NCBI GenBank assembly: GCA_937894465.1
Contig: CALCRE010000060.1
Location: forward strand, 1-48,823
DNA length: 48,823 nucleotides
Direction: 5' to 3'
Source: an uncultured Clostridia bacterium
GTDB taxonomy: Bacteria; Bacillota; Clostridia; JAAYHZ01
Each line of letters begins with the position of its first letter. The stretch's first letter is position 1. This document shows positions 5,746 through 42,166 of this stretch, piece by piece. The translations under genes and the position numbers were made by a program. The notes under the pieces were generated by a model. The model was not told where the DNA came from, made no database searches, and saw nothing but the letters and a program-made list of their open reading frames with translations.

Positions 5746-5767
5746 TCTTTTTTATAGAAAAACATTT

Positions 5768-16107: not shown

Positions 16108-16153
16108 TAAATGAAAATGAAGAAGCCGGCTTTGATAAACATAAAACCGGCTT
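16108..16153 (-). terminator. intrinsic terminator downstream of the aaRS gene
   Basis: Minus-strand AAGCCGG...CCGGCTT 7-bp stem followed by CTTCATTTTCATTT. Confidence 0.5.
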
Positions 16154-17873: not shown

Positions 17874-18236
17874 CTATTTCGAAAATTGGCGCAACTGTAC
17901 GGAAACTCCGTTCGGATCGTAAACATAAAAGTATCGAGTTCCGTCTTTAGGGTCTTGTACAGGAGAAGGATTCAATCCTTTATCAGTGACAAGCTGATGC
18001 ATTTCATCTAATTTGTTCGTCTCAAAGCAGATGAACCACCCTTTTCCTTCAAATTTTTGTCCTTGCGGCATGTATATAAGTTCAATTTCGGTTTCTCCTT
18101 CACCATGTGCCAAGAATGCAATTTCCCATTGATCTCCTTTTTCACGACGCTTCACTGATAACTCCGTTACACACTCATAGAATTTTATCGATTCATCAAT
18201 ATTGTTGACCTTTATAGCCAAGTGTTTAATATGCAT
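17874..18236 (-). CDS. VOC/glyoxalase-bleomycin resistance family protein
   Basis: 120 aa, glyoxalase-like fold, family assignment from overall similarity (MHIKHLAIKVNNIDESIKFY...). Confidence 0.75.
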   Translation of the reverse strand: MHIKHLAIKVNNIDESIKFYECVTELSVKRREKGDQWEIAFLAHGEGETEIELIYMPQGQKFEGKGWFICFETNKLDEMHQLVTDKGLNPSPVQDPKDGTRYFYVYDPNGVSVQLRQFSK

Positions 18237-18342
18237 TTTAATACTCCTCCACGTCAGTTATATATAAAACTTTTTATTTGAAAATTAATTTTATCTATAT
18301 GTTACCACATAAAATCAAATTCAACTCATCAATTGCTTAATT

Positions 18343-19431
18343 CTACATTTGCTTTTTTATATATTCCATGTATCGGTTCCAGTCATATCTTCCAAAATAG
18401 TGAGTACCGGTTCTCAAATGATAAGCAATATTACCTTCATGATAGGTATCCCAACCTTTAGGATATTGATCCCCATGGATAAAACCTTTAAAACCCAGGA
18501 GCTCATACACAGGGCTTGCTGCAACACAAGAAAGATATTCCGAATCAGGATCAGCCCATGTATCCAAAGTAGCACTTGCTACATACACCTTTCTTGGTGC
18601 GCTCAATGCCAACAAGAAATGTTGGTCAAAGGGTAGGTGATCCTCATTGCCAACGTATCGCACATAATTCTGGCAAAACCAATGAGGAAAGGACTTGGTG
18701 ATATGAACAATATGCTCACCGGTTTTCTCCCTTGTAATGGCAGCACCTGAGCAACCGGAATCGTTAGAAATGATATAGGCAAAGCGTTCATCCAATCCGC
18801 CGGCCAGCAGTGCGGTTTTCCCTAGTCTTGAATGACCGACAACGGCAATATTAGAAAGGTCAATGGATTCAAGAGTTTGAACATAGTCCATAACGCGGGA
18901 TGCTGCCCAAGCCCATAACATGATGGTACCGCAATCATCCGGATTTCTTTTTCCTTCCGGATACATAACAGCACCTAACCCTTCTGAAAGGCCGTCTTTT
19001 CTGTCCGGCACAATGTCATGATAACAAAATGAAAAGACAGCAAACCCGTTATCACATATTTCTTCCGTAGGCATATATTTGTCAGGGATACTGTCCCTAA
19101 AGCAAATATGTACAAAAGCAGGTACCTTTTTGTCCATATCATTCGGAATAGCAGAATAAAAAGGAAAAGAAAATTCATTATTTTTCAACTTCAGTTTTAA
19201 CAAGATCTTTGTCAAAGTGACATTCCCTGCGCAGAAGTTTTTTTCTTCGCTTAGTAGTTCATAGGACCAGTCAATCGGTTGAGAAGGTGGAAAACCATAT
19301 TCCTCCGAACAAAGAAGTTGAATGATTTCTTGTCTACGTTTAGCCCAATCCTCTCTGCAAACAACCTTCTTTCCATGATCAAGCATAAGAACATCCGGTA
19401 CACCTCTTCTTATTAATTCCCCGTTTAGCAT
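18343..19431 (-). CDS. alpha/beta-hydrolase, glucuronoyl esterase (CE15)-like
   Basis: 362 aa with GHSRLGKTAL resembling the CE15 nucleophile motif GCSRxGKxAL. Cytoplasmic. RBS AAAGGAGGT. Confidence 0.5.
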   Translation of the reverse strand: MLNGELIRRGVPDVLMLDHGKKVVCREDWAKRRQEIIQLLCSEEYGFPPSQPIDWSYELLSEEKNFCAGNVTLTKILLKLKLKNNEFSFPFYSAIPNDMDKKVPAFVHICFRDSIPDKYMPTEEICDNGFAVFSFCYHDIVPDRKDGLSEGLGAVMYPEGKRNPDDCGTIMLWAWAASRVMDYVQTLESIDLSNIAVVGHSRLGKTALLAGGLDERFAYIISNDSGCSGAAITREKTGEHIVHITKSFPHWFCQNYVRYVGNEDHLPFDQHFLLALSAPRKVYVASATLDTWADPDSEYLSCVAASPVYELLGFKGFIHGDQYPKGWDTYHEGNIAYHLRTGTHYFGRYDWNRYMEYIKKQM

Positions 19432-26634: not shown

Positions 26635-29106
26635 ATGGAATATATACCTGCTGAGAATGTTTGGGAAATAGAACCGATCGCATGGGAAAAAGCAATTGAT
26701 AACGAGATGTCCGAAAGGATTTATAACATACTGTTAAAGTGGTTGCCTTATGCTGATTCCCAATTTAGCGACACTTGGAACACACGACCTAACTGCGGAC
26801 ACTTTTTCGGTGGTTCCTATTGGTACGGGCAAGAAACCGCACATACTGTGGTTGTATTCGCAGTACTGTCTAAGCTTGGCCCCTATCAAGCCGAAGTGAC
26901 CTGTATCTCCAGAGACCAGGTAAAGATCAAAGCAATCAAAGCCATTCGGTATTTAGCATTTACGCATGACACCGGTCCTGAGGATTGCGTTCGGGATCAA
27001 GGTCCTAATCCTCATTGCAGCGGCAAAAAGTGGGGTGGAATGTATGACGGTTTCTTTATGGCTTCTCAAACCGGAAGAACCGTTGCATACCTAGGCCTTG
27101 CGGCATGGTTGCTGTGGGACGATCTGGATGATGAAACTAAAATGGCCGTTCAAAATGTCGTATCTTGGTATGCGGACAGGTGGTCAACGGAGCCACCCCG
27201 TAATGGAGCGTTTTTTGACACCCAAGTTGAAGAGAACGCTTGGACGGCTCAAGGCATATCCACAGCATACAACATGTTTCCGGAACATCCACACCGACAG
27301 ACTTGGAAGGATGGGTTTATACGGTGGTCTCTCAACACCGCCACCACTTTTGCAGATCGGCTCAATCAAGAAAATTATGAAGGAAAACCGTTGAATCATT
27401 GGATTAACTGCATTACACTTTTCCCGGACTACACCACTGAAAATCATGCATTTGTTCATCCTAGTTATCTTAGCGCCGGTATCAATTTAAGAGGCGTCCA
27501 TGCCTTGTTCAGTATGATTTCCGATCAACAAATTCTTGAAAGTGCTTTGTACAACAATGAAAAAGTATACGAGAAAGCTTTAAAATTATTCACACAGTAT
27601 GACGGGTTGGTCATTCCGGTACAAGGTCAAGACTGGTGGTACAACAGACAACATGAACGACAACTCACTCACACCATTTTAAATGTTCTGCATCATAACG
27701 CTGATGCGGCAAGACTGTGTCGCAATGCTTTGACAAGCATAGAGAAAATACAAAACTCCAATATAAGGGGCTGTTTATTGGAAGAAAAAGGTGAAGAATG
27801 TGTCATTCGTCCCGGATTGCAATTTGCAAAGGATATGGAACACGGTTCTGCGGCGGATCTTTTGGTTTCCTACATGCTTTATTTATTCGGCGGGAACGGA
27901 GTATCTCCTTCGGATCAGCAGCAAATGCAATCAAGGTTGTCCGGAGTGTATTACTTCCCTTATGGTAGTTTGTTGGTGCACCGCAAACCGGACAGTTTTA
28001 CAAGTTTCAGCTGGCGAAATAATTGTATGGGATTATGTCTTCCGGAAGCCGGTATGTGGGATATCACCGCGATGTTTTCAAGCTTTACCGGTCACATCGT
28101 CTTTTCAGAGAAAAAAGGTGTCAAGGGCTTATCTAATGAGATTCATATCCGTGAAACGTTGAATCACAGCGAAAGGGTATACAATGACGGATTCGCAGCT
28201 TGTGCATCCATTTCCCGTGGCGACCGGGAAATCATACAGGATGTGGCATTTGTTTCACTACCTGATGGTAACACGGTATATATAGAGCAATTAAACATAC
28301 AAAAGCCTTGTGAAAATGCGACCGTGGAAACAGGTTTGATCGGTATAAGGAATGAAAATCTAATCAATGCACCGGATCTGGCTCCGGGTAAGATCGATTT
28401 ATACACAGAAAACGCAAAGAAGACCTATAAGGGGTTTTATGGTTCCGAACCGGATGAAATCGACGATTACAAACCTTCGAAGTATGTGAATGTGAACAAC
28501 ACCATGGGTTATGTATTAGGCGGTTCTTCCGGAATCCGCTATGTCAACAAGCACGTTTATCCCCAATGGAAAGGCGTTGAGGATCAGTTGATACTGAATC
28601 ATATGGGAGAAAAGACCTTTGACAAAGAGCAGACTCTTGCTCCTTTTGTTGTCATGGTTATGCCCAATAAAACATATCAACAAACCGCCATGTCGGTAAA
28701 CGATTTGATGGTGATGAACCCGAAATGTCCAAAAACCGTATTATTAACCGCTTGCAATCATCTTGTCACAGTAAATTTCAATGATAAATCGGTGAATACC
28801 GCCGGAGAATTCGAAATAAAAAGAGCTCAAGTGATGCTATTCAAGGGGATCAATCGAATTTTCGACAATCATTATATTTGGCACGGAGAACTTTCTGCAT
28901 TTTCTTCGGATTATCACCCTTGTTTGTATATGATCAAAGCAAGCGACTTTCCAAGATTCAATCTTCATGTACTGGTGTCCAAGGAGAAGGTTTTTTTTGA
29001 AAACAGATCCGACCACACAACTGTGTTTACTTTATGCAATTCCTTTGGTGATGAATTAAAGGATTATCGTTTGAAAAGAAATGAAATTGATATGTGGAAT
29101 TTGTAG
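26635..29106 (+). CDS. large cytoplasmic (alpha/alpha)-toroid-like enzyme, possibly heparinase II/III-like polysaccharide lyase family
   Basis: 823 aa with no signal peptide. N-terminal helical, Trp-rich region and C-terminal beta-rich region. Assignment is by overall architecture only. Confidence 0.35.
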   Translation: MEYIPAENVWEIEPIAWEKAIDNEMSERIYNILLKWLPYADSQFSDTWNTRPNCGHFFGGSYWYGQETAHTVVVFAVLSKLGPYQAEVTCISRDQVKIKAIKAIRYLAFTHDTGPEDCVRDQGPNPHCSGKKWGGMYDGFFMASQTGRTVAYLGLAAWLLWDDLDDETKMAVQNVVSWYADRWSTEPPRNGAFFDTQVEENAWTAQGISTAYNMFPEHPHRQTWKDGFIRWSLNTATTFADRLNQENYEGKPLNHWINCITLFPDYTTENHAFVHPSYLSAGINLRGVHALFSMISDQQILESALYNNEKVYEKALKLFTQYDGLVIPVQGQDWWYNRQHERQLTHTILNVLHHNADAARLCRNALTSIEKIQNSNIRGCLLEEKGEECVIRPGLQFAKDMEHGSAADLLVSYMLYLFGGNGVSPSDQQQMQSRLSGVYYFPYGSLLVHRKPDSFTSFSWRNNCMGLCLPEAGMWDITAMFSSFTGHIVFSEKKGVKGLSNEIHIRETLNHSERVYNDGFAACASISRGDREIIQDVAFVSLPDGNTVYIEQLNIQKPCENATVETGLIGIRNENLINAPDLAPGKIDLYTENAKKTYKGFYGSEPDEIDDYKPSKYVNVNNTMGYVLGGSSGIRYVNKHVYPQWKGVEDQLILNHMGEKTFDKEQTLAPFVVMVMPNKTYQQTAMSVNDLMVMNPKCPKTVLLTACNHLVTVNFNDKSVNTAGEFEIKRAQVMLFKGINRIFDNHYIWHGELSAFSSDYHPCLYMIKASDFPRFNLHVLVSKEKVFFENRSDHTTVFTLCNSFGDELKDYRLKRNEIDMWNL

Positions 29107-29133
29107 GATAAATTTTTAAAATTGGAGGTCATT

Positions 29134-29973
29134 ATGATACCCACAGTTGATTTTTACGGCCACAAGATAAGCAGATTGATTTTAGGCGACAATCCTTTCA
29201 CCGGACATTCCTATATCGAGTCACTCCACTCCGGTGAAGAGATGATGGATTATTACACAGCAGAAAGTTGTGTAAAAGCTATGTTTGAGGCTCAAGAAAG
29301 CGGAATTAACACTTATATGGCTTTAGGAGATCCTTTCATTTTACGTGTCATCCGGCAGTACAAGAATGAAGGCGGAAAGATGAACATCATGTTTCAATCC
29401 TATGCCGGAATGGATTTAGCCGTCAACTTGAGAATGATGTTAAAATGCGAACCCATAGCCATTTATCATCAAGGATCCACCGCAGATTACTATTGTGAAC
29501 AAGGTCAGGAAAAACTTCTGAAAGAGCGCATTAAAATGATTAAGGACACCGGCGTCATAGCGGGAATGGCTACCCATGTACCGGAAACCCTTTTACGCGC
29601 ATATGAGGAGGATTGGGGCGCAGACTTTTACAGCGCATGCCTTTATAACGCAAGAAGACAACAAAGAGGTCAGCAAAGCGGTTTCATCACCGGTAAAACA
29701 AAAGAACACCTTGTTTTCTTCCCGGAGGATCGACTCTCCATGTTTGATGCCATTAAAAAGGTTCAAAAACCCATCGTAGCGTTTAAAGTTTTTGCAGGCG
29801 GTCAGGTATTCTTAGGTCATGAACCGGAAGAAATCCCGGCGGTTGCTCATACAGCCTTAAAGGAGGCATATGACAACATCAAGCCTTCGGATATGATCAT
29901 GCTTGGGGTATTCCAAAAACACAAAAATCAGCTGAAGGAAAACACAGATATCGTCAAGAAAATCTTTAAATGA
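29134..29973 (+). CDS. hypothetical protein (possible TIM-barrel-like), co-transcribed with the upstream gene
   Basis: Start MIPTVDF with GGAGG 5 nt upstream, 16-28 nt after the upstream stop. Confidence 0.55.
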   Translation: MIPTVDFYGHKISRLILGDNPFTGHSYIESLHSGEEMMDYYTAESCVKAMFEAQESGINTYMALGDPFILRVIRQYKNEGGKMNIMFQSYAGMDLAVNLRMMLKCEPIAIYHQGSTADYYCEQGQEKLLKERIKMIKDTGVIAGMATHVPETLLRAYEEDWGADFYSACLYNARRQQRGQQSGFITGKTKEHLVFFPEDRLSMFDAIKKVQKPIVAFKVFAGGQVFLGHEPEEIPAVAHTALKEAYDNIKPSDMIMLGVFQKHKNQLKENTDIVKKIFK

Positions 29974-30005: not shown

Positions 30006-30034
30006 AGCCGGAACCATATGTTTTCCGGCTTTTT
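30006..30034. terminator. bidirectional intrinsic terminator
   Basis: AGCCGGAA-ccatatgtt-TTCCGGCT followed by TTTTAATATT. Confidence 0.7.
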
Positions 30035-30470
30035 AATATTCGTATTTCATAATGATGTTGTCACCTTCACGAAGTTCATCGGTGATCACAAATCCTAATT
30101 TGGTATAAAGATTTTTTGCCGCTTTATTTTCCGGTTCACAATCGATATAGATTTTGTGATAGTTCGGATCTACCGTTATTCGATCCATCAGAAGCTTCAT
30201 GGCTTTGAAGCCATAACCTCTCGATTGATATCCGGCATCGATCATCAATCGATATATGTAATAGGTGTTAACCTCGGCATCAATACAATACATGGTGAAT
30301 CCCACCATAGTCTCGTCATCATAAATAGCCAAAGGAATGCATTCGGGTTCGTATTTGGATTGCGCTAAAGACACGGCATTCGATGCAACAAAGCTTTGTT
30401 GTTCCTGCTTCACTCTCAATCTCAAACATGCCCTGTAATTATCACGAGTTATTGCTCTTAAATAAATCAT
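30033..30470 (-). CDS. GNAT family N-acetyltransferase
   Basis: 145 aa with motif QSRGYGFKAMKLL. Confidence 0.8.
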   Translation of the reverse strand: MIYLRAITRDNYRACLRLRVKQEQQSFVASNAVSLAQSKYEPECIPLAIYDDETMVGFTMYCIDAEVNTYYIYRLMIDAGYQSRGYGFKAMKLLMDRITVDPNYHKIYIDCEPENKAAKNLYTKLGFVITDELREGDNIIMKYEY

Positions 30471-30473
30471 CTG

Positions 30474-30914
30474 TTACTTAATCACCTTCTCCATTTCAAA
30501 ATGAGGAACGGTCACTTCCATAAATTCTTCACCGATAATTTTGTAATCCATTCTTTTGTAAAAGGACAACGCTGTCTTTCTAGCATGTAAAACAATTCTG
30601 CCGTATCCAAGTTCCTTTGCCACTGTTTCTGCAAAGGCAACCATCCGGGTTCCGAACCCTTTACCTTGGTGTTCTTCTTCCACTGCAACCTGTCTCATCT
30701 TGACCGTATGCAAACTTAAGGGGGTTAATACCAATACCCCGATGATAAGCATGTTATAGAAAACACCGATATGGATATCGTTGATTTCCTTGTTTAAATT
30801 CTCTTGGAATAAATTCAATCCCAAAGGTCTTCGAAGAATTTTATCCCTTAACAACAAGGATTGTCGGTAATCTTCCGACTGATATTTTATGATTCTTATA
30901 TCCACTTTTATCAT
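30474..30914 (-). CDS. GNAT family N-acetyltransferase
   Basis: 146 aa with motif HQGKGFGTRMVAFAE. Confidence 0.8.
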   Translation of the reverse strand: MIKVDIRIIKYQSEDYRQSLLLRDKILRRPLGLNLFQENLNKEINDIHIGVFYNMLIIGVLVLTPLSLHTVKMRQVAVEEEHQGKGFGTRMVAFAETVAKELGYGRIVLHARKTALSFYKRMDYKIIGEEFMEVTVPHFEMEKVIK

Positions 30915-31105
30915 TTTTGTTGCTTCATCTTTTTAAGCATGGGAACAATACCGCTATAAATGAAACACATGGATATGAATAATAGGAAAATCAACAGCGC
31001 ACCCCATGTATTGTTCATTTCCGCTTTCACAAGAATCACTGCGTATGCGATAATACCTACAACACCGATTAATATCCTGATCAATTCTTTTTTGTTCTCT
31101 TTCAA
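30911..31105 (-). CDS. small two-TM membrane protein (64 aa)
   Basis: Two hydrophobic helices. Its stop overlaps the downstream GNAT start (ATGA). Confidence 0.5.
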   Translation of the reverse strand: MKENKKELIRILIGVVGIIAYAVILVKAEMNNTWGALLIFLLFISMCFIYSGIVPMLKKMKQQK

Positions 31106-31118
31106 AGTAAAACCTCCG

Positions 31119-31724
31119 TTAACCGTCTATTAAGTATCCATTTTCAACCGCTTCTTGCACAATCATTTTTATATATTCCCACAACAACTTGGAGCCTTCC
31201 TGTATATGGGCATTTTTAGTCAAGACTTGTTCTTTTGTCACATTCAACCGCTTCCATTGCAAGCCTTCCGTCATATAGTTATGATAAATAGGCATAAATC
31301 GATCCAAAGCGTTGGCATATTTGGACTCGTTGCTCCTTCTCTCGTCAAACTCAATCCAAAGGGCAATGAATTGTTTCTTTTGATCGGAAGGCAACAAGCC
31401 GAATATTCTCTCCGCGGCATTTCTCTCTTGTTCCGCTCTTAATTTCGGATCAACCTTCGCATAAGCAAACACATCCCCCGCATCAATTTCCACGATGTCA
31501 TGCAATACGACCATTTGAAAAACCTTAGTTATGTCCAACTCATCAAAATCGGTGTATTCCGATAAAACAAGCGCTGCAACCGCCATATGCCACGAATGCT
31601 CTGCATCGTTTTCCCTACGGGATTGATCCATCAAAACCGTGTTGCGGATTATCTGCTTCGCTTTATCAATTTCAGCTAAAAACCCCAATTGGCTTTCCAA
31701 TCTTTCTAATTTTTTTGCATCCAA
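31119..31724 (-). CDS. HD domain phosphohydrolase (YfbR/5'-deoxynucleotidase-like)
   Basis: H...HD motif: HSWHMAVAALVL...LHDIVEIDAGD. Confidence 0.8.
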   Translation of the reverse strand: MDAKKLERLESQLGFLAEIDKAKQIIRNTVLMDQSRRENDAEHSWHMAVAALVLSEYTDFDELDITKVFQMVVLHDIVEIDAGDVFAYAKVDPKLRAEQERNAAERIFGLLPSDQKKQFIALWIEFDERRSNESKYANALDRFMPIYHNYMTEGLQWKRLNVTKEQVLTKNAHIQEGSKLLWEYIKMIVQEAVENGYLIDG

Positions 31725-31752
31725 TTCATATCACCGTTTCTCTTAATGCATT

Positions 31753-32229
31753 TTATATATTTTTAATACTACAACAAATTTCATCATTCTTCAACAGGAT
31801 GATTCCATAGGAGGCCTGAATAGAATTTCTTGAAACACGACCGATTCTACCGGGATTCATCATCCATATACCTCCTTCGTTTTCCAAATACGGTATATGA
31901 GTATGTCCGAAAAGAATCATGTCGGCATTAACGCTCTCTCCTTTGTAAAAGATTCGAGACAATCCGAATTGTACATTATACCGGTCTCCATGGGTGATAT
32001 AGATTCGCTTTTTGTTTTTGATGATTGTTTTTTCATAAGGATAACATATGACAGTATCGGTGTTGCCCGGCACCATCTCCATGGGTATTTCCGGAAAGTC
32101 TTTTTGCAAGTGTTCTGCATCCGTGATATGATCTCCTAAGTGAATCACCAATTCAGGTCTTTCTTTTTTGACAACGAAAGTCATTGTCTCGTTATCCCTA
32201 TGAGAATCAGCAAAAACAACGATTTTCAA
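31753..32229 (-). CDS. YfcE/MJ0936-type metallophosphoesterase
   Basis: DSHRD, GDHI, GNTD, HGD and GHTH motifs. TTG start overlapping the secA-like stop (TTTGA), with AGGAGGAAG 5 nt upstream. Confidence 0.8.
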   Translation of the reverse strand: MKIVVFADSHRDNETMTFVVKKERPELVIHLGDHITDAEHLQKDFPEIPMEMVPGNTDTVICYPYEKTIIKNKKRIYITHGDRYNVQFGLSRIFYKGESVNADMILFGHTHIPYLENEGGIWMMNPGRIGRVSRNSIQASYGIILLKNDEICCSIKNI

Positions 32230-34631
32230 AACGTCTTCCTCCTATTATTAGCCATCATTCGGCTTTTTCGTGTGAAGAATTCATAGGCTGCCAAAGCCAT
32301 ATACAATAAAATATTCATAGATAAAAAAGCAGGATTTGCCAATAACATGTTAATCCCAAGTTGCTCCGGCCGATCATCCACCAGATAAGTCCATGTGGAA
32401 GACGGTCCAATCAGACCTTCTTTTTTAAGGTCAATGCCCTTTTCGGTCAGGTTTATTGTTTGCAAGGAATTACATACACCGGATTCAATATCTTGCACCA
32501 GTTCATCATAAGCTTGAATCGCCATCTTATGAAATTCGTCCAAAGGTGTTTTACCGGCCATATTCGTAAGATGGATTCCGTTTCTTATATAGTTGATATA
32601 CGATAGATAATCCATCCAACAATGATTGATATGATAAAGCCAAATCATTCTTTCAGCTTCCTCTAAAACATGCTCCGGAATGAATGAACTGTATTTTTTA
32701 TATAGTTCAGGAAGTTTGCTTTTTAAAAGTCCCGGACTCCATCCGAACAAGATCTTCATCCTTTTAGTGTACATCATCCTTCTTTGCTGATCGAGAATGA
32801 ATGTATACCTGTATAATGTCCTTCTTATATCATGGTTTTGACCTTCAATGATCCTTTGTGCATTTCGCACTCTCTTAACAATGATCTTATGTTCCAAAGG
32901 AGCGTCTTGTTTCTCCGGGTAGAATCGAACCGGTATCAATTCCTTTAATTGATATCGGACCATCAAATTATCTTCAAGGCTTGTAAAAAAGCAGCTCACA
33001 CCCGGATCTCCTTGCCTTCCGGCTCTTCCCTTGAGTTGGTTGTCAATCCTTATACTCTCATGTCGATTGGTTCCTATAACATAGAGTCCTCCCAACGATT
33101 TGATTTTTTCCCGATCAATCCCTTCTTCTCTACCCAACTTGATATCAGTTCCTCTTCCCGCCATATTGGTGGATACCGTCACAGCAAAAGAAAGTCCCGC
33201 CTTTGCAATGATACCGGCTTCCAACTCATCATTTTTTGCATTCAACACATTGCATGGAATCCCCGCATTGTAAAGATCCTTTGCCAACCTTTCGGATTCT
33301 TGAACACTGGCAGTCCCGATTAAAATAGGTTGTCCAGTTTTATGCACCTTGCTTATTTCTTCGGTCAAAGCCTTAAATTTTGCATCCTTATGAGTGAATA
33401 TCTTGTCCGGATAATCTATACGAATACACGGCATATTTGTTGGAATCTCCAATACATCCAATCCATAAAAATCAAGAAACTGAGTTTTAGCTGTCGAAGC
33501 CGTTCCGGTCATACCACTGACTTTTTGGTAATTTACAATATAATCTTTCATGGTCATGGAATACAATATTCGTCCGTTTGGTTGGTCTTGAATGCCTTCC
33601 TTTGCTTCTATGGCTGCTTGAAGTCCGTCGGGCCATTGACGGTTATCCGCTATTCTACCTGTGAATTCATCTACAAGTTCGATTTTCCCTCCCCGGACAA
33701 TGTAATCGATGTCTCTTTTCAACAATCCATTGGCATGCAAGGCATTATTTACCCCTGCTAACAAATACCAATTCTTCTGATCATAGAGATTTTCGCAATC
33801 CAACATTTTTTCCACATATTCAGTTCCTTCTTCGGTCAACATAATATTCCGAGCGTATTCATCTGTTTGATAATGGATATCTCTAGTCAATTCCTTGATC
33901 ACCGAATCAATGAATTGTTCATCGCGAATACTTTCATCCGGCACATTACCCGCAAGCACCATTGGGATTCCGGCTTCATCGAGCAAGATGGAATCCACTT
34001 CGTCAATAATAGCATAATGGAAACCTCTTTGAACCAATTGTTGAGGATTGCTTGCAGTAAAGGATCTTAAATGATCAAATCCGGCTTCTTTGGCTGTAGC
34101 GTAGGTTATATCCTTGCAGTAAGCGGTTTTCTTTTCTTTCCAATCCATTCCTTCTTGGATATACCCTGCGGTCAGCCCTAAGAATTCGAATACCGGTCCC
34201 ATCCATTCAGCATCTCTTTTTGCCAAGTAATCGTTAAATGTAAGGATATGTACACCTTTTCCCGTCAAAGCGTTTAAATATGCAGGACAAACAGCTGCAA
34301 GAGTTTTTCCCTCTCCGGTCTTCATATCGATAATTAATCCTTCGTGCAACCCGAGCCCCGCCAATAATTGCACATCAAAATGTCTCATTCCCGAAACTCT
34401 TGTGGATGCCTCCCTTACCAAAGCAAATGCCGGTATCAACAAATCATAGAGATTCTTTCCTTTTATTGCATCGGTTTGCAAACTCCTTGAAAGATTTTTC
34501 AGTTTATGATCACTTAAATCCGACAAATTCATTTCATTGATTTGATCTAAGATTTTCAAATACATCTTCGGAATTTTCTTGTATAGAGGATCGTTTTTAT
34601 TGCTCGGACTGAGTTTTTGTTCCCTTTTCAT
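32226..34631 (-). CDS. secA: SecA-family preprotein translocase ATPase, short divergent form lacking a C-terminal zinc finger (SecA2-like)
   Basis: GEGKTLAA, MTGTA, NMAGRGTDIKLG and GRAGRQGDPG are present. The invariant DEARTPLIISG region is changed to DEAGIPMVLAG. 801 aa, ending in a 24-residue hydrophobic stretch plus a basic tail. Confidence 0.8.
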   Translation of the reverse strand: MKREQKLSPSNKNDPLYKKIPKMYLKILDQINEMNLSDLSDHKLKNLSRSLQTDAIKGKNLYDLLIPAFALVREASTRVSGMRHFDVQLLAGLGLHEGLIIDMKTGEGKTLAAVCPAYLNALTGKGVHILTFNDYLAKRDAEWMGPVFEFLGLTAGYIQEGMDWKEKKTAYCKDITYATAKEAGFDHLRSFTASNPQQLVQRGFHYAIIDEVDSILLDEAGIPMVLAGNVPDESIRDEQFIDSVIKELTRDIHYQTDEYARNIMLTEEGTEYVEKMLDCENLYDQKNWYLLAGVNNALHANGLLKRDIDYIVRGGKIELVDEFTGRIADNRQWPDGLQAAIEAKEGIQDQPNGRILYSMTMKDYIVNYQKVSGMTGTASTAKTQFLDFYGLDVLEIPTNMPCIRIDYPDKIFTHKDAKFKALTEEISKVHKTGQPILIGTASVQESERLAKDLYNAGIPCNVLNAKNDELEAGIIAKAGLSFAVTVSTNMAGRGTDIKLGREEGIDREKIKSLGGLYVIGTNRHESIRIDNQLKGRAGRQGDPGVSCFFTSLEDNLMVRYQLKELIPVRFYPEKQDAPLEHKIIVKRVRNAQRIIEGQNHDIRRTLYRYTFILDQQRRMMYTKRMKILFGWSPGLLKSKLPELYKKYSSFIPEHVLEEAERMIWLYHINHCWMDYLSYINYIRNGIHLTNMAGKTPLDEFHKMAIQAYDELVQDIESGVCNSLQTINLTEKGIDLKKEGLIGPSSTWTYLVDDRPEQLGINMLLANPAFLSMNILLYMALAAYEFFTRKSRMMANNRRKTF

Positions 34632-34758
34632 ATTAAAAGAATTGCTCGGTTACATGATAAACATAAACCGCCTTATACCTTCACTTTCTACTGTAGGATG
34701 GTTCAATATTACCTCAATAACCGCTTTCTTGCAATCATATAATTAGTTGAGAATTTAG

Positions 34759-34773
34759 TTGAGAAGCGTCCCC
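34759..34773 (+). repeat. copy 6 of the motif (TTGAGAAGCGTCCCC), preceded by a partial direct repeat AGTTGAGAA
   Basis: 15-mer lying between the NUDIX stop and the secA-like start. Confidence 0.8.
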
Positions 34774-34789
34774 TTGATTATTTCAACCT

Positions 34790-35974: not shown

Positions 35975-36475
35975 TTACAATTGTTCCAACTGATGAATAA
36001 CATCTTCAAGCAATTGCTCGATGTTTTTATCCTCACCTACGGCGGTAATATCGGCGTATTGTTCATACAACGGAGCCCTTTCCCGGTAGATGTCTTGCAG
36101 TGTTTGTCCCTTCCTTTGAACAATTCCCCTGGTGGAGATATTATTAATTCGTCTTATCATCTCGGAATAGGAGATTTTCAAATAGACGATGATTCCCGTG
36201 TCTTTTAAAGCCGTCATAGCTTTTTTACTGTACACCACACTTCCCCCTGTTGCAATGACACTGTTTTTAAATGTTGTTTCGCAAATATACTTTTGCTCAA
36301 TATCTAAAAACCCGAAAGTGCCTTCTTGATCGATTATTTCTTGTAGTAACCGCCCCTCTTTTTGTTGTATAAGAATATCGGTATCGACAAAATTCATTCC
36401 TAAAGTTTTTGCCGTCAAAACACCTAATGTACTTTTTCCTGCACCGGGCATACCGATGAACACAATGTTTTTCAT
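35975..36475 (-). CDS. aroK: shikimate kinase
   Basis: P-loop GMPGAGKST and shikimate kinase core. 166 aa. Confidence 0.85.
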   Translation of the reverse strand: MKNIVFIGMPGAGKSTLGVLTAKTLGMNFVDTDILIQQKEGRLLQEIIDQEGTFGFLDIEQKYICETTFKNSVIATGGSVVYSKKAMTALKDTGIIVYLKISYSEMIRRINNISTRGIVQRKGQTLQDIYRERAPLYEQYADITAVGEDKNIEQLLEDVIHQLEQL

Positions 36476-36638
36476 CTGCTACCTTCCTTTTTTTAGTGTT
36501 TTTAATATTATCACAGGCAAATGTACAGTGCAATATTTTAGATTGATTCATGAAATTTCTTGTGACAAGTGGATCTTTTTCCTTTATTATGGTACATATG
36601 TATTACATGTTATCGGGTGTATAACCAGGAGGTATTTC

Positions 36639-38495
36639 ATGAAAAACGAATTCAGCAAATTATTAGGACCAAAAATTGGGCATTTGGATTTTGAAATTGT
36701 ACCTGACCAAGGAGACCCTTTAAATTTAGATTCATATGTTATTAAAATCAGTAGGTTTCAAGACGGATGGATTGTCACCGGAACATATGCAGACATGAAA
36801 ATACAATGGACTTTTAAGCCGATCGCTTTAGGTTGGCAGGTGAACCTATCCGTCAATCATTCCGTACCTAAGGGATTAAAGTCCATCACCGCTTTACAGT
36901 TTGATTTTAATACAGGCGACGAAGATATGGATCATTGGCTTGTTCCGGTCTCCGGAAACCATGTATCCAACACCGGTTTTGTGAATGTAAAGAATCTGTC
37001 CGGCTACAAAGCCAAAGCAACCGGTATTTTCAAAGATGGCAACTATAAAGGAATCTTTTTATCCGCCATATACCCCCTTTCATATAGTGTTAATTGTACC
37101 GCTTCCAAAACAGGTACGGAACAATTACATTTTATCGCCCAAACTCAATTCAACCCGAACCATAAAAGTGCATTTCATCAAAGCGAATCTTTTTGGATTT
37201 GTACGGACTCTAATATGAAAAATGCAGTGGAAGCTTATGCTTCCTTGTACAAGGAATATCAAGTCGACAAAGCGGATATTCCCGTAGGCTGGAACTCCTG
37301 GGATTACTATTATCGCACCGTTTCACTTGAGGATGTGATTGAAAACATGGAGTTCATCCGAAAAGATCCGGATTTATCCGAAAATATCAAATACATAACG
37401 GTGGATGACGGGTGGAACCATAATTGGGGTGAATGGCAACCGAATTACCGATTCCCCGGAGGACTGGAGAGGTTAGTGAAGGAAATTTCCGATCGAGGTT
37501 TCATACCCGGCATTTGGACTGCTCCCTTGCAAGTGGAATCTCTTTCAACTCCTGCCATGCGTACACCTGAAATATTAATCAAAAATCAATATGGAGATCC
37601 TTTACCTTCGGATGCCGGAGGCCACTATCTGGTGGATCCTACAAGCCCGGGAGGACGGGGATTCCTCCAAGAATTGTTTGCAAGGCTGTATGACTTAGGT
37701 TTTAGGCTTTTTAAGGTGGACTATGTCAGAAGTCTTTTAAAGGTAAATCAATTTTACGAAGAAGGTGTCGGACCTTACGAAGCACTACGGGAACTGTTTC
37801 GAATCATCAGAAGTTGTGTCAAGGACAGTCACATCATCGGTTGCTCTCTGCCGGAGGAGTGTGGTCCTTTTGTTGTTGATTCCGGTCGTATCACCATCGA
37901 TATACATAATCAGTGGAGTCATGTGGAATGGGTAACCGATTCCATCCTCCATAATTATTGGATGCATAAAAAAATATGGATCAATGATCCGGACTTTTTA
38001 GTTGTACGGGGACTGGATACATCTTTTGAAAAAGAAACCAATGTCACCAATCCCGCTGCGAACAATCCTAACCCCGGTCGTTGGCGGTCCGGTCCTGTCT
38101 TTAACGAAGACGAAGCAATGACATGGACAAACATGGTGATCATGTGCGGTGGCAATGTGTTTTTAGGAGACAGGTTGTCTAAGCTAAACGATAAAGGTTT
38201 GTCTTTTGTTAAAAAAGCCTTAAAACCCTCCGGTATTTCTGCAAAACCATTGGATTTAGGAGATGACTTGAGACCCTATTTTTGGTTGCAAGACTTGGGT
38301 ACTTCCTATCGTCTCATGGTTGTAAACTGGAAGGACACAGAGCATGAGTTTTGCTTTGACTTTACAAAATACCGGCTAACCGCCCCGAAACAGCTAACGG
38401 ATGATTGGAGCAAACAAATACACCAAACACTGGGCGGAAGATTGAACGTTTTCTTAAGGCGTCATGAAAGCATATTGGTGCAATGGGAAAAATAG
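36639..38495 (+). CDS. alpha-galactosidase (melibiase, GH36/GH27 clan-D-like)
   Basis: Start at the internal ATG (MKNEFSKLL) with AGGAGG 6 nt upstream. Motifs ITVDDGW, GIWTAPL and FKVDY. Confidence 0.75.
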   Translation: MKNEFSKLLGPKIGHLDFEIVPDQGDPLNLDSYVIKISRFQDGWIVTGTYADMKIQWTFKPIALGWQVNLSVNHSVPKGLKSITALQFDFNTGDEDMDHWLVPVSGNHVSNTGFVNVKNLSGYKAKATGIFKDGNYKGIFLSAIYPLSYSVNCTASKTGTEQLHFIAQTQFNPNHKSAFHQSESFWICTDSNMKNAVEAYASLYKEYQVDKADIPVGWNSWDYYYRTVSLEDVIENMEFIRKDPDLSENIKYITVDDGWNHNWGEWQPNYRFPGGLERLVKEISDRGFIPGIWTAPLQVESLSTPAMRTPEILIKNQYGDPLPSDAGGHYLVDPTSPGGRGFLQELFARLYDLGFRLFKVDYVRSLLKVNQFYEEGVGPYEALRELFRIIRSCVKDSHIIGCSLPEECGPFVVDSGRITIDIHNQWSHVEWVTDSILHNYWMHKKIWINDPDFLVVRGLDTSFEKETNVTNPAANNPNPGRWRSGPVFNEDEAMTWTNMVIMCGGNVFLGDRLSKLNDKGLSFVKKALKPSGISAKPLDLGDDLRPYFWLQDLGTSYRLMVVNWKDTEHEFCFDFTKYRLTAPKQLTDDWSKQIHQTLGGRLNVFLRRHESILVQWEK

Positions 38496-40349: not shown

Positions 40350-41939
40350 TTATCGACAGCTATCAATCACCTTTTGGATTTGCCATATGTATTCATTGTT
40401 TCTACAAAACTCAATGCTTTCCATGAGTTTCTCATATGTTATATTATAATCGAAAAACGAATTGATTTGACTACGCAGTTTAACCTCTTCTGTAAGTGTA
40501 TATCTAAATTCATCAAGTTTCATCAACCGATCCATCTTTAACAAGAAATGATCCTCTTGTTCGATTACGCTTTTCATAATTAATTCGGAAAGGGGTAAGC
40601 AAGCGTTGTTCTGTGTGATCTTTTCCGTATAGTATTTTTCTTGATAGTTAATATACAGGCTATCCGAAATTAAAACATCGGTATCAACGGTATAGCTCTC
40701 GAGCAGTGATGAAAAACTTCTTGTTGTTTCATCTCGGTACAATATTTTTGTTTGAGGATCCCTCTTGTAATGCACATCCTCGATACCGTATTTGATCAGG
40801 GCATTGGCATCAGGGTCGGAATACAACCAATCGATGTATTGTACAGCTTGTTGCGGTTTTTCACAGTTTGAAGATACTGCAAACATAAATTGCCTACTTT
40901 GTCCTTTATAAACTGAACGATCATATTCGGTCAAAATATGAACATCATATCGATCACGATCAAAAACGCTACTATCAGCACTGAGAAAAGATCCGTAACT
41001 CATGACTCCGGCAACCAATCCGTTAAAATTGTCCTTCAGAGAATTTTGCACGGCATTTAACCCTGCCGATATCCTGTTTTCCTCAAATAAAAGTTTGTAT
41101 TCGAAAGCCTTCTTTAAAAAATCAGTGTCATCCACCCGTAAGACATTGCACTCCGGATCCTTTATTTCGCAAAAATACATATACGGTATTGTAGGAAAGA
41201 TGTTATAGTATCCTAAGCTATATAGAAGATGAGTCATCACATCGCTGTTATTGAATATGATTCGATCGTTTTCCACAAGTAATTTCTTATCGTTCAATTC
41301 AACACAAGCATTTATTGCATCTTGAACAGAGGTAAATACATTCGTGCTTAATTGTCCTACCAATCCTTTATCGATCACAAACACCGGATTGCTTGAAAAC
41401 AAATCATGCATATAGATGCCATAGACTTTATCGTCGTATCCCATTAATGGTTTTACACTTGGATTGATTTCATACAGGGTGGAAAGATAAGGAGTTCTTG
41501 CGTTGATATATGAAGTGATCTCCTGTACATAACCGTTTTTTACATGGTGTGCCAAATCTGTAGGAACAGGTGTATTAGAGCTCATTTTGACCTCATGGTA
41601 ACGGTTCATCAACAGATACAGATCCGGTCCCATTCCTGCTGCAATACTTTCGTACAAAGCGTTATAGTAATTCATCATATATAAGTCTTGGTATAAATCC
41701 GTCGTAAGAAGTTCAACGGTCACCCCCAAATAATCTTTGCTCAAGGAGTTCAATTGATCAAACACAGCAATGTAATCTTCTTTAAATAGACCATAGGGAT
41801 AACAAAAAGTGATCACATCTTGTGGTGATTGTCTGCCGGGTATAGGGTTGGTTTGACTCTCTTTTATATGCCCTTCGGGCGTACATCCAAAAAAGAATAG
41901 TAAGCAAAGAAGAATGGCGATATAACCGGTCTTTTTCAT
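40350..41939 (-). CDS. large extracellular solute-binding lipoprotein (second orphan family-1 SBP)
   Basis: Signal peptide with lipobox FFFGC. The start is likely M8 (MKKTGYIAILL...), with AAAGGAGA upstream. Confidence 0.7.
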   Translation of the reverse strand: MKKTGYIAILLCLLFFFGCTPEGHIKESQTNPIPGRQSPQDVITFCYPYGLFKEDYIAVFDQLNSLSKDYLGVTVELLTTDLYQDLYMMNYYNALYESIAAGMGPDLYLLMNRYHEVKMSSNTPVPTDLAHHVKNGYVQEITSYINARTPYLSTLYEINPSVKPLMGYDDKVYGIYMHDLFSSNPVFVIDKGLVGQLSTNVFTSVQDAINACVELNDKKLLVENDRIIFNNSDVMTHLLYSLGYYNIFPTIPYMYFCEIKDPECNVLRVDDTDFLKKAFEYKLLFEENRISAGLNAVQNSLKDNFNGLVAGVMSYGSFLSADSSVFDRDRYDVHILTEYDRSVYKGQSRQFMFAVSSNCEKPQQAVQYIDWLYSDPDANALIKYGIEDVHYKRDPQTKILYRDETTRSFSSLLESYTVDTDVLISDSLYINYQEKYYTEKITQNNACLPLSELIMKSVIEQEDHFLLKMDRLMKLDEFRYTLTEEVKLRSQINSFFDYNITYEKLMESIEFCRNNEYIWQIQKVIDSCR

Positions 41940-42166
41940 TTTCACGGTATCTCCTTTCATGGTATGAAGAGTTCATTTCTTGATAAGGTATGTTTTTACT
42001 ATATCACACCAATTGATTTGCCGTCAACATTATCTTCCATTTCTTGCATACCATTGGGATGCATCTTGCTTCGTTATCTCCCTCATTACGTGTAGGCTGT
42101 GTATTGTGTATCTGCTCCTTTGGGTATATAATAAAACAATAGTTCTGGTCTTTTGTTCAATTTGGA

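What the first reader, a model, noticed from the sequence alone, without database searches (positions are those of the whole stretch)
30033..34631. Divergent short SecA-like ATPase with hydrophobic C-terminal tail heading a phosphoesterase/HD/GNAT operon
The 801-aa SecA homolog keeps the ATPase motifs but alters the near-invariant DEARTPLIISG to DEAGIPMVLAG. It lacks the C-terminal zinc-finger/SecB-binding tail. It ends in an approximately 24-residue hydrophobic segment (LLANPAFLSMNILLYMALAAYEFF) followed by RKSRMMANNRRKTF, which resembles a tail-anchor. Its stop overlaps the TTG start of a YfcE-type metallophosphoesterase, which has a strong internal RBS. An HD hydrolase, a 64-aa two-TM protein and two GNATs follow with gaps of 28 nt or less. 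This reads as an accessory SecA2-type paralog in an unusual operon context rather than the housekeeping secA, whose usual neighbours prfB/hpf are absent.
Basis: partly seen in the sequence, partly recalled or inferred. Interest (0 to 1): 0.55.

Follow-up and report, generated by a model that had tools for sequence, protein, structure and literature searches.

The report
SecA2-type ATPase with hydrophobic tail
This is a second, accessory-type version of the protein-export motor SecA from an uncultured Clostridia bacterium; databases already call it SecA2 and its gene neighbours look incidental, but its oily, positively charged tail is a widespread trait of this SecA2 branch that I could not find described.

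Summary
An 801-aa SecA homologue (32226..34631, minus strand) has intact ATPase motifs, DEAGIPMVLAG, no zinc finger and a hydrophobic-then-basic C-terminus. Its stop overlaps the TTG start of a YfcE-type phosphoesterase, and HD, 64-aa 2-TM and two GNAT genes follow tightly.

It belongs to the mycobacterial-type SecA2 family. It passes the TIGR04221 cut-off and fails every SecA1 model. Its helical wing domain is truncated as in M. tuberculosis SecA2, and it sits in a clade separated from SecA1 in 50/50 bootstraps. NCBI already names a near-identical protein (1 aa difference) "accessory Sec system translocase SecA2".

Most of the motif change is clade-typical (DEAR[IV]PLVIAG; mycobacteria DEALVPLVLAG). 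Only R221G is private to this species.

The phosphoesterase/HD/GNAT context recurs only in the same species and in none of 84 related loci, so it carries no functional signal.

The tail is a clade trait across several phyla. It is not amphipathic, but only marginally hydrophobic, so it is more likely an interfacial membrane-binding or docking segment than a true tail-anchor.

Unlike all 20 Bacillota relatives with a 3-TM upstream ORF, this gene has no small membrane-protein ORF upstream.

Whether the genome also has a SecA1 could not be tested.

The parts
32226..34631 (-). secA2-type translocation ATPase gene, 801 aa
   Evidence: ORF. Pfam SecA domains without SEC-C. TIGR04221 793.8 bits, at or above the 725 cut-off. 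AlphaFold2 model mean pLDDT 83.6 with a SecA fold. The same 90% cluster is named SecA2 by NCBI.
33948..33980 (-). DEAGIPMVLAG (residues 218-228), at the NBD1-to-PPXD stem
   Evidence: Clade norm is DEAR[IV]PLVIAG. Mycobacterium has DEALVPLVLAG and some members DEAKVPLVLAG. G at position 221 is unique among 120 homologues and 84 loci.
32676..32747 (-). remnant of the helical wing domain (about residues 629-652)
   Evidence: B. subtilis SecA residues 623-698 have no counterpart, and query 633-645 bridges the gap. There are 127 residues between GRQGDPG and CWMDYL, against 178 or more in SecA1-type proteins, in a bimodal distribution. The model shows only two short helices, 635-648.
32385..32405 (-). 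PSSTWTY clade signature (residues 743-749), predicted beta-strand
   Evidence: Invariant P743, W747, T748 and Y749 in the family alignment. Strand 746-751 in the model. The motif retrieves SecA2-type genes from Actinomycetota, Planctomycetota, Acidobacteriota and Bacillota. Present in 39 short-HWD sequences against 1 long-HWD sequence.
32274..32345 (-). hydrophobic tail segment LLANPAFLSMNILLYMALAAYEFF (residues 763-786)
   Evidence: Kyte-Doolittle 19-mer maximum 1.61. Eisenberg <H> 0.62 with muH 0.13, so not amphipathic. Hessa-type sum +3.4 kcal/mol, which is marginal. It follows a disordered linker (758-770, pLDDT below 50), and the helix 774-800 has pLDDT of about 55-71.
32229..32273 (-). 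polybasic C-terminus TRKSRMMANNRRKTF (residues 787-801)
   Evidence: Sequence. Mean net charge of the last 15 aa is +4.05 in clade members with hydrophobic tails.
32238..32243 (-). AGGAGG ribosome-binding site for the phosphoesterase, inside the secA2 coding sequence
   Evidence: Read directly. It lies 8 nt upstream of the TTG at 32227-32229, which overlaps the secA2 TGA stop.
31753..32229 (-). YfcE-family metallophosphoesterase, 158 aa, translationally coupled to secA2
   Evidence: Metallophos_2 93.3 bits. TIGR00040 yfcE 79.4 bits, at or above the 56.25 cut-off.
31119..31724 (-). HD_3 / YfbR-like HD phosphohydrolase, 201 aa
   Evidence: PF13023 166.3 bits.
30911..31105 (-). 64-aa two-TM protein of unknown family
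   Evidence: No Pfam or NCBIfam hit. Best 19-mer -2.9 kcal/mol, a true TM helix. No homologue in 84 related loci.
30474..30914 (-). GNAT acetyltransferase, 146 aa
   Evidence: Acetyltransf_1, _7 and _10.
30033..30470 (-). GNAT acetyltransferase, 145 aa (last gene of the run)
   Evidence: Acetyltransf_1 61.2 bits.
30006..30030 (-). terminator-like hairpin followed by a U-rich tract
   Evidence: AGCCGGAA...UUCCGGCU, -12.3 kcal/mol, z = -1.6. The tool's stricter scan did not list it. Inferred end of the transcription unit.
34632..34789 (-). 158-nt non-coding gap upstream of secA2, where relatives encode a small membrane protein
   Evidence: No ORF and no remnant of either upstream small-protein family. 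No significant RNA structure, z = 0.04. Weak promoter-like TTGCAA-17 nt-TAATAT at 34734..34706, read by eye (8 of 12, below the tool's threshold).

Best explanation
The gene encodes a SecA2-type accessory preprotein-translocation ATPase of the 'mycobacterial' family (TIGR04221-like), in an uncultured Clostridiales bacterium.

Shown:
- It keeps a complete DEAD-type motor, the preprotein cross-linking domain, the scaffold helix and a two-helix finger with a hydrophobic tip (Met in place of Tyr).
- It lacks most of the helical wing domain and the zinc-finger C-terminal tail.
- It belongs to a well-separated clade that includes M. tuberculosis SecA2.

Inferred:
- Like mycobacterial SecA2, it works alongside a canonical SecA1 on the single SecYEG channel and exports a subset of proteins. 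No SecY2 or Asp genes are nearby.
- The C-terminal 45 residues form a flexible linker, then a uniformly hydrophobic but only marginally hydrophobic helix, then a polybasic end. This most likely holds the ATPase at the cytoplasmic face of the membrane, by interfacial or monotopic insertion plus binding of anionic lipids. That would compensate for the lost wing-domain and C-terminal-tail contacts.
- Co-transcription and translational coupling with the phosphoesterase/HD/GNAT genes is a species-specific accident of gene packing and not a functional module.
- This lineage has also lost the small upstream membrane-protein ORF that accompanies secA2 in other Bacillota.
For: Classification:
- TIGR04221 793.8 bits, at or above 725. 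All SecA1 and other SecA2 models are below their cut-offs.
- One-stretch alignment to 4UAQ over residues 35-756.
- HWD-region length 127 aa, against 178 or more in SecA1-type proteins. Clade bipartition in 50/50 bootstraps. No zinc fingers among 76 short-HWD sequences, against 47 of 74 in the SecA1 group.
- Clostridia SecA1 proteins are 874-947 aa with PF02810.
- NCBI's name for HBN85143.1.

Motor integrity:
- Invariant motor motifs are retained.
- The finger tip aligns as LTNMAG to B. subtilis LRAYAQ.
- Confident SecA fold: pLDDT 83.6, TM-score 0.71-0.77 to B. subtilis SecA.

Tail:
- It is conserved in physico-chemistry across 120 homologues and several phyla.
- <H> 0.62 with muH 0.13.
- 39 of 76 clade representatives have hydrophobic tails, and relatives in Actinomycetota and Planctomycetota have amphipathic basic helices instead.
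- Published work reports that mycobacterial SecA2, which has the shortest tail, lacks the lipid-binding C-terminal domain and is mainly cytosolic (PMC4457860).

Context is incidental:
- None of 84 related loci has any of the neighbour genes next to secA2.
- The same order is seen only in same-species contigs.
Against: - No second secA could be looked for in this MAG. The window is one 48.8-kb contig, and the attempt to link SecA1 and SecA2 carriers by contig fingerprint failed.
- The tail is not a convincing TM helix: +3.4 kcal/mol on a Hessa-type sum, a family median of +5.9, and a frequently conserved central Pro.
- AlphaFold gives low confidence for the tail and no information on what it contacts.
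- The protein is at the divergent end of its family, with 10 departures at positions conserved in at least 95% of members (median 3, maximum 13), including R221G.
- It lacks the upstream partner ORF, so its regulation or function may differ from its relatives.
- The tight coupling to the phosphoesterase is real, so co-expression does occur.
Confidence: 0.65

Rival explanations
1. The hydrophobic-plus-basic tail is not a membrane tether. It is a cis-acting pseudo-substrate (a signal-peptide mimic) or a protein-docking segment. It could occupy the preprotein clamp of SecA2 to auto-inhibit it, or it could bind SecYEG, SecA1 or a small membrane partner.
For: - The marginal hydrophobicity, frequent central Pro and adjacent basic cluster resemble a signal peptide's h- and n-regions more than a TM helix.
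- The tail emerges directly after the conserved STWTY beta-strand.
- In canonical SecA the flexible C-terminal linker binds the substrate groove and modulates activity (PMC6620043).
- Hydrophobic tails co-occur with small upstream membrane ORFs in 25 of 40 loci, against 6 of 40 for non-hydrophobic tails.
Against: - The polarity is reversed relative to a signal peptide (the basic part is C-terminal).
- AlphaFold does not dock the helix with confidence (pLDDT about 55-71).
- Some clade members have strongly hydrophobic tails that look like real TM helices (Hessa sum at or below 0 in 4 of 68; Eisenberg <H> 0.8-0.9).
- The window lacks the putative partner ORF but keeps the tail.
Confidence: 0.25
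2. This is the organism's only, housekeeping SecA. The lineage would have replaced SecA1 with a SecA2-like form, so 'accessory' is a misnomer here.
For: - No other secA is visible in the window, and co-occurrence with SecA1 could not be demonstrated for any Bacillota carrier with the tools available.
- In some phyla the clade's genes are preceded by RSPP-type leader ORFs like those described upstream of housekeeping secA.
Against: - The protein fails all SecA1 equivalog cut-offs.
- It lacks the wing domain and the SEC-C tail that Clostridia SecA1 proteins carry.
- The clade is patchy within Bacillota and groups with the paralogue that coexists with SecA1 in mycobacteria (PMC4457860).
- The usual secA neighbours are absent.
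Confidence: 0.08
3. SecA2 and the downstream phosphoesterase, HD hydrolase, small membrane protein and GNATs form a functional module. For example, they might modify or process SecA2 substrates, by analogy with the glycosylation and acetylation genes of the streptococcal accessory Sec locus.
For: - Stop/start overlap with a strong internal RBS.
- Gaps of 28 nt or less through six genes.
- A terminator-like hairpin only after the last GNAT.
- The arrangement is identical in three assemblies of the species.
Against: - None of these gene families is near secA2 in 84 related loci, including the closest relative at 65% identity.
- The aSec-type model TIGR03714 scores 603.7 against a cut-off of 930, and there is no SecY2, Asp or Gtf gene.
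- The flanking genes (NUDIX, GNAT, SKI-fold kinase) are the same kind of small housekeeping enzymes, which suggests secA2 sits in a generic cluster.
Confidence: 0.05
4. The gene is a decaying or functionally drifting paralogue, with relaxed constraint after relocation and loss of its leader ORF.
For: - It is among the most divergent family members: 10 departures at conserved sites and mean identity 53.6% against a median of 57.8%.
- It has the private R221G change.
- It has lost the upstream ORF.
Against: - The 801-codon ORF is intact with every motor motif.
- Most departures are conservative (E/D, R/K, I/L, L/M, A/V), and the count is within the family range (maximum 13).
- The Arg position is also non-Arg in functional mycobacterial SecA2.
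- The model is confident.
Confidence: 0.05

Closest known systems
Mycobacterial-type SecA2 (NCBIfam TIGR04221; M. tuberculosis Rv1821, PDB 4UAQ)
   Same: - It passes the family's curated cut-off.
- Collinear alignment over residues 35-756.
- Truncated helical wing domain, no zinc-finger tail, a DEAxxPLVxAG stem motif and the PSSTWTY signature.
- Same clade in 50/50 bootstraps.
- No SecY2 nearby.
   Different: - About 40-44% identity only.
- Mycobacterial SecA2 ends 22 residues after the PSSTWTY motif (NPLSDDTLSALSLPGVFR) and is reported as mainly cytosolic. This protein adds a 45-residue linker, hydrophobic helix and polybasic end.
- Gly replaces Leu/Arg at position 221.
- The host is a Clostridia bacterium, not an actinobacterium.
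Clostridioides difficile SecA2 (PDB 6SXH/6T4H)
   Same: A Clostridia accessory SecA with no canonical C-terminal tail that uses the general SecYEG (PMC7503281).
   Different: - C. difficile SecA2 keeps a full-length wing domain and is structurally closer to SecA1.
- It aligns with the window protein only over residues 27-628.
- It is a different lineage of SecA duplication.
Canonical SecA1 (TIGR00963 / NF009538; B. subtilis SecA 1M6N, Clostridia SecA1 as)
   Same: Same motor, PPXD, scaffold and two-helix finger. About 39-40% identity and TM-score 0.71-0.77 to B. subtilis structures.
   Different: - Below all SecA1 cut-offs.
- About 63 residues of the wing domain are missing.
- No SEC-C/zinc finger.
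- No prfB or hpf neighbours.
Streptococcal/staphylococcal accessory Sec system (SecA2-SecY2-Asp1-3-Gtf; TIGR03714)
   Same: An accessory SecA encoded in an operon with modifying enzymes. This is a superficial resemblance through the GNATs.
   Different: - TIGR03714 scores 603.7 against a cut-off of 930.
- No SecY2, Asp or glycosyltransferase genes in 48.8 kb.
- The neighbours are not conserved in relatives.
Bacterial tail-anchored membrane proteins (e.g. E. coli ElaB/YqjD; PMC6794478, PMC3087755 listed)
   Same: A single hydrophobic segment within about 40 residues of the C-terminus, no N-terminal signal, and basic residues at the extreme end.
   Different: - The window's segment is much less hydrophobic than a typical tail-anchor (+3.4 kcal/mol; <H> 0.62 against 0.77 for an ElaB-like control recalled from memory).
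- The long polybasic end would have to cross the membrane.
SecM / RAPP-like (RQH) translation-arrest leader peptides upstream of secA (PMC10987492)
   Same: Relatives of this gene in Acidobacteriota, Aminicenantes and some Eubacteriales carry a short 2-TM ORF that ends in a conserved R-S-P-P immediately upstream. RSPP is one of the motifs used in that study.
   Different: - The window has no upstream ORF at all.
- Arrest activity of these particular ORFs is untested.
- The Bacillota 3-TM upstream family has no obvious arrest motif.

Membership tests
Mycobacterial-type SecA2 (TIGR04221) | Scores at or above the curated equivalog cut-off of the family model | tested here: met
   793.8 bits against a cut-off of 725, matching profile positions 21-747 of 762.
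Mycobacterial-type SecA2 (TIGR04221) | Shortened or deleted helical wing domain relative to SecA1 | tested here: met
   About 63 residues are missing relative to B. subtilis. 127 residues between GRQGDPG and CWxDYL, against 178 or more in SecA1-type proteins. The literature states that the Mtb and Corynebacterium SecA2 HWD is shorter.
Mycobacterial-type SecA2 (TIGR04221) | No canonical C-terminal tail with a zinc-binding SEC-C motif | tested here: met
   No PF02810 hit. No Cys/His motif in the last 50 aa. 0 of 76 clade members have one, against 47 of 74 SecA1-type proteins.
Mycobacterial-type SecA2 (TIGR04221) | Phylogenetic placement with characterised SecA2, apart from SecA1 | tested here: met
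   An NJ bipartition that includes the window protein and Mycobacterium SecA2 is supported in 50/50 bootstraps. Caveats: unrooted, distance method, top 150 hits only.
Mycobacterial-type SecA2 (TIGR04221) | Coexists with an essential SecA1 in the same genome; itself dispensable and substrate-selective | not testable with these tools
   Only one 48.8-kb contig of the MAG is available. Genome scans are capped. The contig-fingerprint attempt found no link.
Canonical housekeeping SecA1 | Passes SecA1 equivalog models (NF009538, TIGR00963, NF006630) | tested here: not met
   786.1 below 814; 747.3 below 800; 722.6 below 862.
Canonical housekeeping SecA1 | Full-length helical wing domain and (in Clostridia) a SEC-C tail | tested here: not met
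aSec (SecA2/SecY2) system | TIGR03714-type SecA2 with adjacent secY2, asp1-3 and glycosyltransferase genes | tested here: not met
   603.7 below 930. None of those genes is in the window.
Tail-anchored membrane protein | A single C-terminal segment hydrophobic enough to span the bilayer, with a very short extracytoplasmic end | tested here: inconclusive
   Kyte-Doolittle 1.61 and Eisenberg <H> 0.62 with muH 0.13 favour a TM-like segment. A Hessa-type sum of +3.4 kcal/mol and a 15-residue end carrying 5 basic and no acidic residues argue against it. No dedicated topology predictor was available.
Conserved secA2 operon with phosphoesterase/HD/GNAT genes | The gene order recurs in independent lineages | tested here: not met
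   0 of 84 related loci. It is present only in same-species contigs L085 and L086.

The most novel reading that the evidence does not exclude
The mycobacterial-type SecA2 clade is much broader than the literature treats it, spanning Bacillota, Acidobacteriota, Aminicenantes, Planctomycetota and others. In about half of its 50%-identity clusters it carries a C-terminal membrane-seeking element: a hydrophobic helix plus a polybasic end, or an amphipathic basic helix. This element would make the ATPase constitutively membrane-bound, and the cytosolic, tail-less mycobacterial protein would be the derived exception. In many lineages the gene is also preceded by a small membrane-protein ORF, in some with an RSPP arrest-type ending, which would make this a secretion-monitored, membrane-tethered second SecA. 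The window protein would be a member that kept the tether but lost the leader ORF.
Probability: 0.3. Interest if true: 0.6.

Novelty: new member of a known kind. Interest (0 to 1): 0.35.

Why it matters
For this window the result is mostly clarifying. The gene is an already-annotatable SecA2, and its odd neighbours should not be read as a secretion module.

The wider point is that SecA2 biology rests on a few pathogens, in which SecA2 is described as tail-less and, in mycobacteria, largely cytosolic. Here, half of the clade's sequence clusters end in a hydrophobic or amphipathic basic tail, and many sit behind small membrane-protein leader ORFs.

If the tail tethers the motor to the membrane, that would explain how a SecA lacking the wing domain and the lipid-binding C-terminal domain reaches SecYEG. 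It would also give a simple handle for experiments (tail deletion or tail swap) on how accessory SecA proteins are targeted and regulated in non-pathogenic anaerobes.

Tried and rejected
1. A single-protein scan of species genomes for close relatives found nothing. It was replaced by a scan with a C-terminal family alignment.
2. Direct test of SecA1 co-occurrence. I searched with a Clostridia SecA1 representative (P0214) and compared organism names and contig lengths with the SecA2 carriers. There was no overlap, so the question stays open. The D. hafniense genome paper mentions only one SecA and is uninformative.
3. Literature searches for a tail-anchored or TM-tailed SecA/SecA2 and for SecA2 in Clostridia, Planctomycetes or Acidobacteria found no description. 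This is absence in the searchable library only.
4. Looked for a conserved RNA element, terminator or attenuator in the 158-nt leader: none (z = 0.04; Rfam none).
5. Looked for a remnant or relocated copy of either upstream small-protein family anywhere in the window, including the 64-aa 2-TM protein: none.
6. Considered the aSec analogy (GNATs as substrate-modifying enzymes). Rejected on HMM score, missing partner genes and lack of conservation.
7. Considered that DEAG inactivates the motor. Rejected because the Arg is Leu in functional mycobacterial SecA2 and Lys elsewhere in the clade.
8. The structure prediction could not resolve what the tail contacts (low pLDDT).

Full report
**What is there.** The minus strand between 36475 and 30033 carries nine co-directional genes: a SKI-fold kinase, a GNAT, a NUDIX hydrolase, the 801-aa SecA homologue (32226..34631), a 158-aa YfcE-family metallophosphoesterase, a 201-aa HD_3 hydrolase, a 64-aa two-TM protein and two GNATs. 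The secA stop (TGA, 32226-32228) overlaps the phosphoesterase TTG start (32227-32229), with AGGAGG 8 nt upstream inside the secA coding sequence. The following junctions are a 28-nt gap, a 13-nt gap, a 4-nt overlap and a 3-nt gap. A hairpin with a U-tract follows the last GNAT. Upstream of secA there is a 158-nt gap with no ORF and no significant structure. They are identical in three independent assemblies of the same species.

**What the protein is.** Pfam finds the SecA DEAD, PPXD, P-loop and wing/scaffold domains but no SEC-C zinc finger. Among NCBIfam models, the only one whose curated cut-off is passed is TIGR04221, the mycobacterial-type accessory SecA2 (793.8 against 725). The three SecA1 models and the three other SecA2 models all fall short. 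Against solved structures, M. tuberculosis SecA2 (4UAQ) aligns in one piece over residues 35-756. B. subtilis SecA aligns in two pieces and leaves about 63 residues of its helical wing domain unmatched. C. difficile SecA2 aligns only to residue 628.

The AlphaFold2 model is confident (mean pLDDT 83.6, pTM 0.81) and is a SecA fold with only two short helices where the wing domain should be. Published work describes exactly this shortened wing domain and the missing C-terminal domain as the hallmarks of mycobacterial and corynebacterial SecA2 (PMC7503281; PMC4457860). The two-helix-finger tip keeps a hydrophobic residue (LTNMAG aligned to B. subtilis LRAYAQ) and all motor motifs are intact. The protein therefore looks like a working translocation motor.

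**Phylogeny.** An exhaustive search of 1.84 billion cluster representatives gave 23,966 hits. I built a tree from 138 of its best 150 (those 700-1,350 aa long), plus the window protein, five Clostridia homologues from the first search and seven SecA2 genes from named genomes: 150 sequences over 655 well-occupied columns, with Kimura distances and neighbour joining. One bipartition separates 77 sequences from 73 SecA1-type sequences in 50 of 50 bootstraps. The 77 include the window protein, the Clostridia relatives, and SecA2 from Mycobacterium, a planctomycete and an acidobacterium.

The split coincides with a bimodal length of the wing-domain region (100-147 against 178 or more residues). It also coincides with the PSSTWTY motif (39 against 1) and with the zinc finger (0 of 76 against 47 of 74). 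Canonical Clostridia SecA1 proteins are 874-947 aa and carry PF02810. NCBI already names a protein differing by 1 aa, HBN85143.1, 'accessory Sec system translocase SecA2 [Clostridiales bacterium]'. The window's aspartyl-tRNA synthetase record is likewise labelled 'MAG TPA, Clostridiales bacterium'.

Only this contig is available, and my attempt to link SecA1 and SecA2 carriers through contig fingerprints found nothing.

**The motif.** The 120 closest homologues almost all read DEARIPLVIAG. Across 84 loci of the wider clade the variants are DEAR[IV]PLVIAG (46), DEALVPLVLAG in Mycobacterium (5), DEAKVPLVLAG (3) and a few others. So T->I, I->V and S->A relative to SecA1 are clade characters, and the Arg is dispensable in a SecA2 known to function. 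Only Gly221 is private to this species. The protein is at the divergent end of its family, with 10 departures at positions conserved in at least 95% of members (median 3, maximum 13). Most of these are conservative.

**The tail.** After the invariant PSSTWTY strand, tails differ by lineage:
- Mycobacterium ends 22 residues after the PSSTWTY motif, with no hydrophobic segment.
- Other actinobacteria and planctomycetes have amphipathic basic helices (<H> below 0.15, muH 0.5-0.78).
- Bacillota, Acidobacteriota, Aminicenantes, Rhodothermales, Myxococcales and Anaerolineae have a hydrophobic stretch followed by a polybasic end.

39 of 76 clade representatives fall in the hydrophobic class. The window's segment has <H> 0.62 with muH 0.13, so it is uniformly hydrophobic and not an amphipathic linker. 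A simple sum on the Hessa biological scale (values recalled from memory) gives +3.4 kcal/mol. That is better than anything in the soluble body (+6.6) but far from the real TM helix of the neighbouring 64-aa protein (-2.9). The Clostridia family median is +5.9, and only 4 of 68 clade representatives reach 0 or below. A central Pro is frequent, and the end carries a mean net charge of about +4. AlphaFold predicts a disordered linker (758-770) and then a helix (774-800) of modest confidence.

My reading is a flexible, membrane-seeking C-terminal element: interfacial or monotopic insertion plus electrostatic binding to anionic lipids. It would substitute for the lost wing-domain and C-terminal-domain contacts. 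A true tail-anchor is possible in the most hydrophobic members but is not secure here. A pseudo-substrate or docking role is the main rival. I found no description of such tails on SecA2 in the searchable literature. Reviews and structure papers state that SecA2 proteins lack a C-terminal tail.

**The operon.** The same gene order is present in two other assemblies of the same species (1 nt difference in secA2). The closest relative (65% identity) and the other relatives examined have entirely different neighbours. A BLAST of all eight neighbour proteins against every ORF of 84 related loci found none next to secA2. There is no SecY2, Asp, Gtf, prfB or hpf gene anywhere in the window. Co-transcription is likely, and translational coupling to the phosphoesterase is real. 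But the association is species-specific, and the flanks are a generic run of small housekeeping hydrolases and acetyltransferases. I treat it as incidental.

**What the window lacks.** In all 20 Bacillota loci with an HMM hit, a 105-141-aa three-TM protein without any Pfam or NCBIfam family lies immediately upstream of secA2. In Acidobacteriota, Aminicenantes and some Eubacteriales the upstream ORF is instead a 61-104-aa two-TM hairpin ending in a conserved R-S-P-P. That motif is among the RAPP-like arrest sequences catalogued upstream of secA (PMC10987492). Small upstream membrane ORFs accompany 25 of 40 hydrophobic-tailed genes, against 6 of 40 others, although phylogeny confounds this. The window has neither family, and no remnant of either, in the leader or anywhere in its 48.8 kb. 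Loss of the leader ORF, relocation into a new neighbourhood and R221G therefore mark this lineage.

**Verdict.** This is an ordinary but somewhat divergent member of a known, already-annotated family (mycobacterial-type SecA2), in an uncultured Clostridiales bacterium. The operon context is not informative. The most interesting residue of the finding is at clade level: membrane-seeking C-terminal tails and leader ORFs that have not, to my knowledge, been described for SecA2.

Noticed in passing
L001:7654-7971, L002:7612-7968, L003:7607-7933, L010:7780-8115, L020:7710-8030 and 15 further Bacillota loci: A family of 105-141-aa three-TM proteins lies immediately upstream of secA2 in 20 Bacillota loci. 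It has a conserved third helix '...SNHxIxSLDIxFxxSxLxLxLFHxxK' and a variable tail of about 10 aa. It is absent from Pfam and NCBIfam, and absent from the window. It could be a partner, a leader or a monitoring substrate of SecA2.
   Followed up: partly
L026:7733-8041, L030:7824-8078, L047:7833-8069, L058:305-490, L064:7767-8003, L069:6695-6952, L081:6647-6886, L083:7760-8074: 61-104-aa two-TM hairpin ORFs ('LGxFFPPLLLFLPLLFYFLL') end in a conserved R-S-P-P a few residues before the stop. They lie directly upstream of SecA2-clade genes in Acidobacteriota, Aminicenantes, Desulfaltia and some Eubacteriales. They look like RAPP-type (RQH) translation-arrest leader peptides (PMC10987492). Arrest activity is untested.
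   Followed up: partly
L005-L084 (C-terminal ends of the SecA2-clade genes); P0121-P0270: The C-terminal tail type tracks lineage within the SecA2 clade: none in Mycobacterium, an amphipathic basic helix in other Actinomycetota and Planctomycetota, and a hydrophobic stretch plus polybasic end in Bacillota, Acidobacteriota, Aminicenantes and others. The clade is far broader taxonomically than the 'mycobacterial' label suggests.
   Followed up: yes
L003:11350-17097 and 17136-18388; L002:10690-11961 and 15367-16122: In Acetivibrio cellulolyticus, secA2 is followed by a 1915-aa protein and a second protein of more than 989 aa, neither with any Pfam domain. In another Clostridia genome it is flanked by LysM/PG-binding peptidoglycan hydrolases. 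These are possible SecA2 substrates, by analogy with Listeria and C. difficile.
   Followed up: no
window 35975-36475 (-) and 36456-38495 (+): The SKI-fold kinase scores best against NF040667 'homoserine kinase' (179.3 bits, just under the cut-off of 197) and not against the shikimate kinase models. The listed start of the divergent 679-aa melibiase-like ORF overlaps it by 20 nt and is probably over-extended.
   Followed up: no
window 26635-29106 (+), 29122-29973 (+), 914-2755 (-), 3937-5745 (+), 40350-41960 (-): Five sizeable ORFs (283-823 aa) have no Pfam match at E <= 1e-5. The 823-aa and 283-aa ORFs are adjacent on the same strand and end convergently against the secA2 gene run.
   Followed up: no
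L086:8210-8842 and 3259-6990 (GCA_003504795.1, same species as the window): In the sister assembly the NUDIX gene is split into two ORFs (77 + 89 aa), and the amidase and melibiase-like genes are shorter than in the window. This suggests frameshift errors or pseudogenisation in that MAG.
   Followed up: no
P0198 (4930 aa), P0234 (2030 aa), P0221 (1756 aa), P0239 (1554 aa) from the representative search: Several very long predicted proteins contain a SecA motor region. In P0198, residues 3150-3555 match query residues 166-571 at 36% identity. They may be fusions, eukaryotic or organellar genes, or gene-calling artefacts.
   Followed up: no
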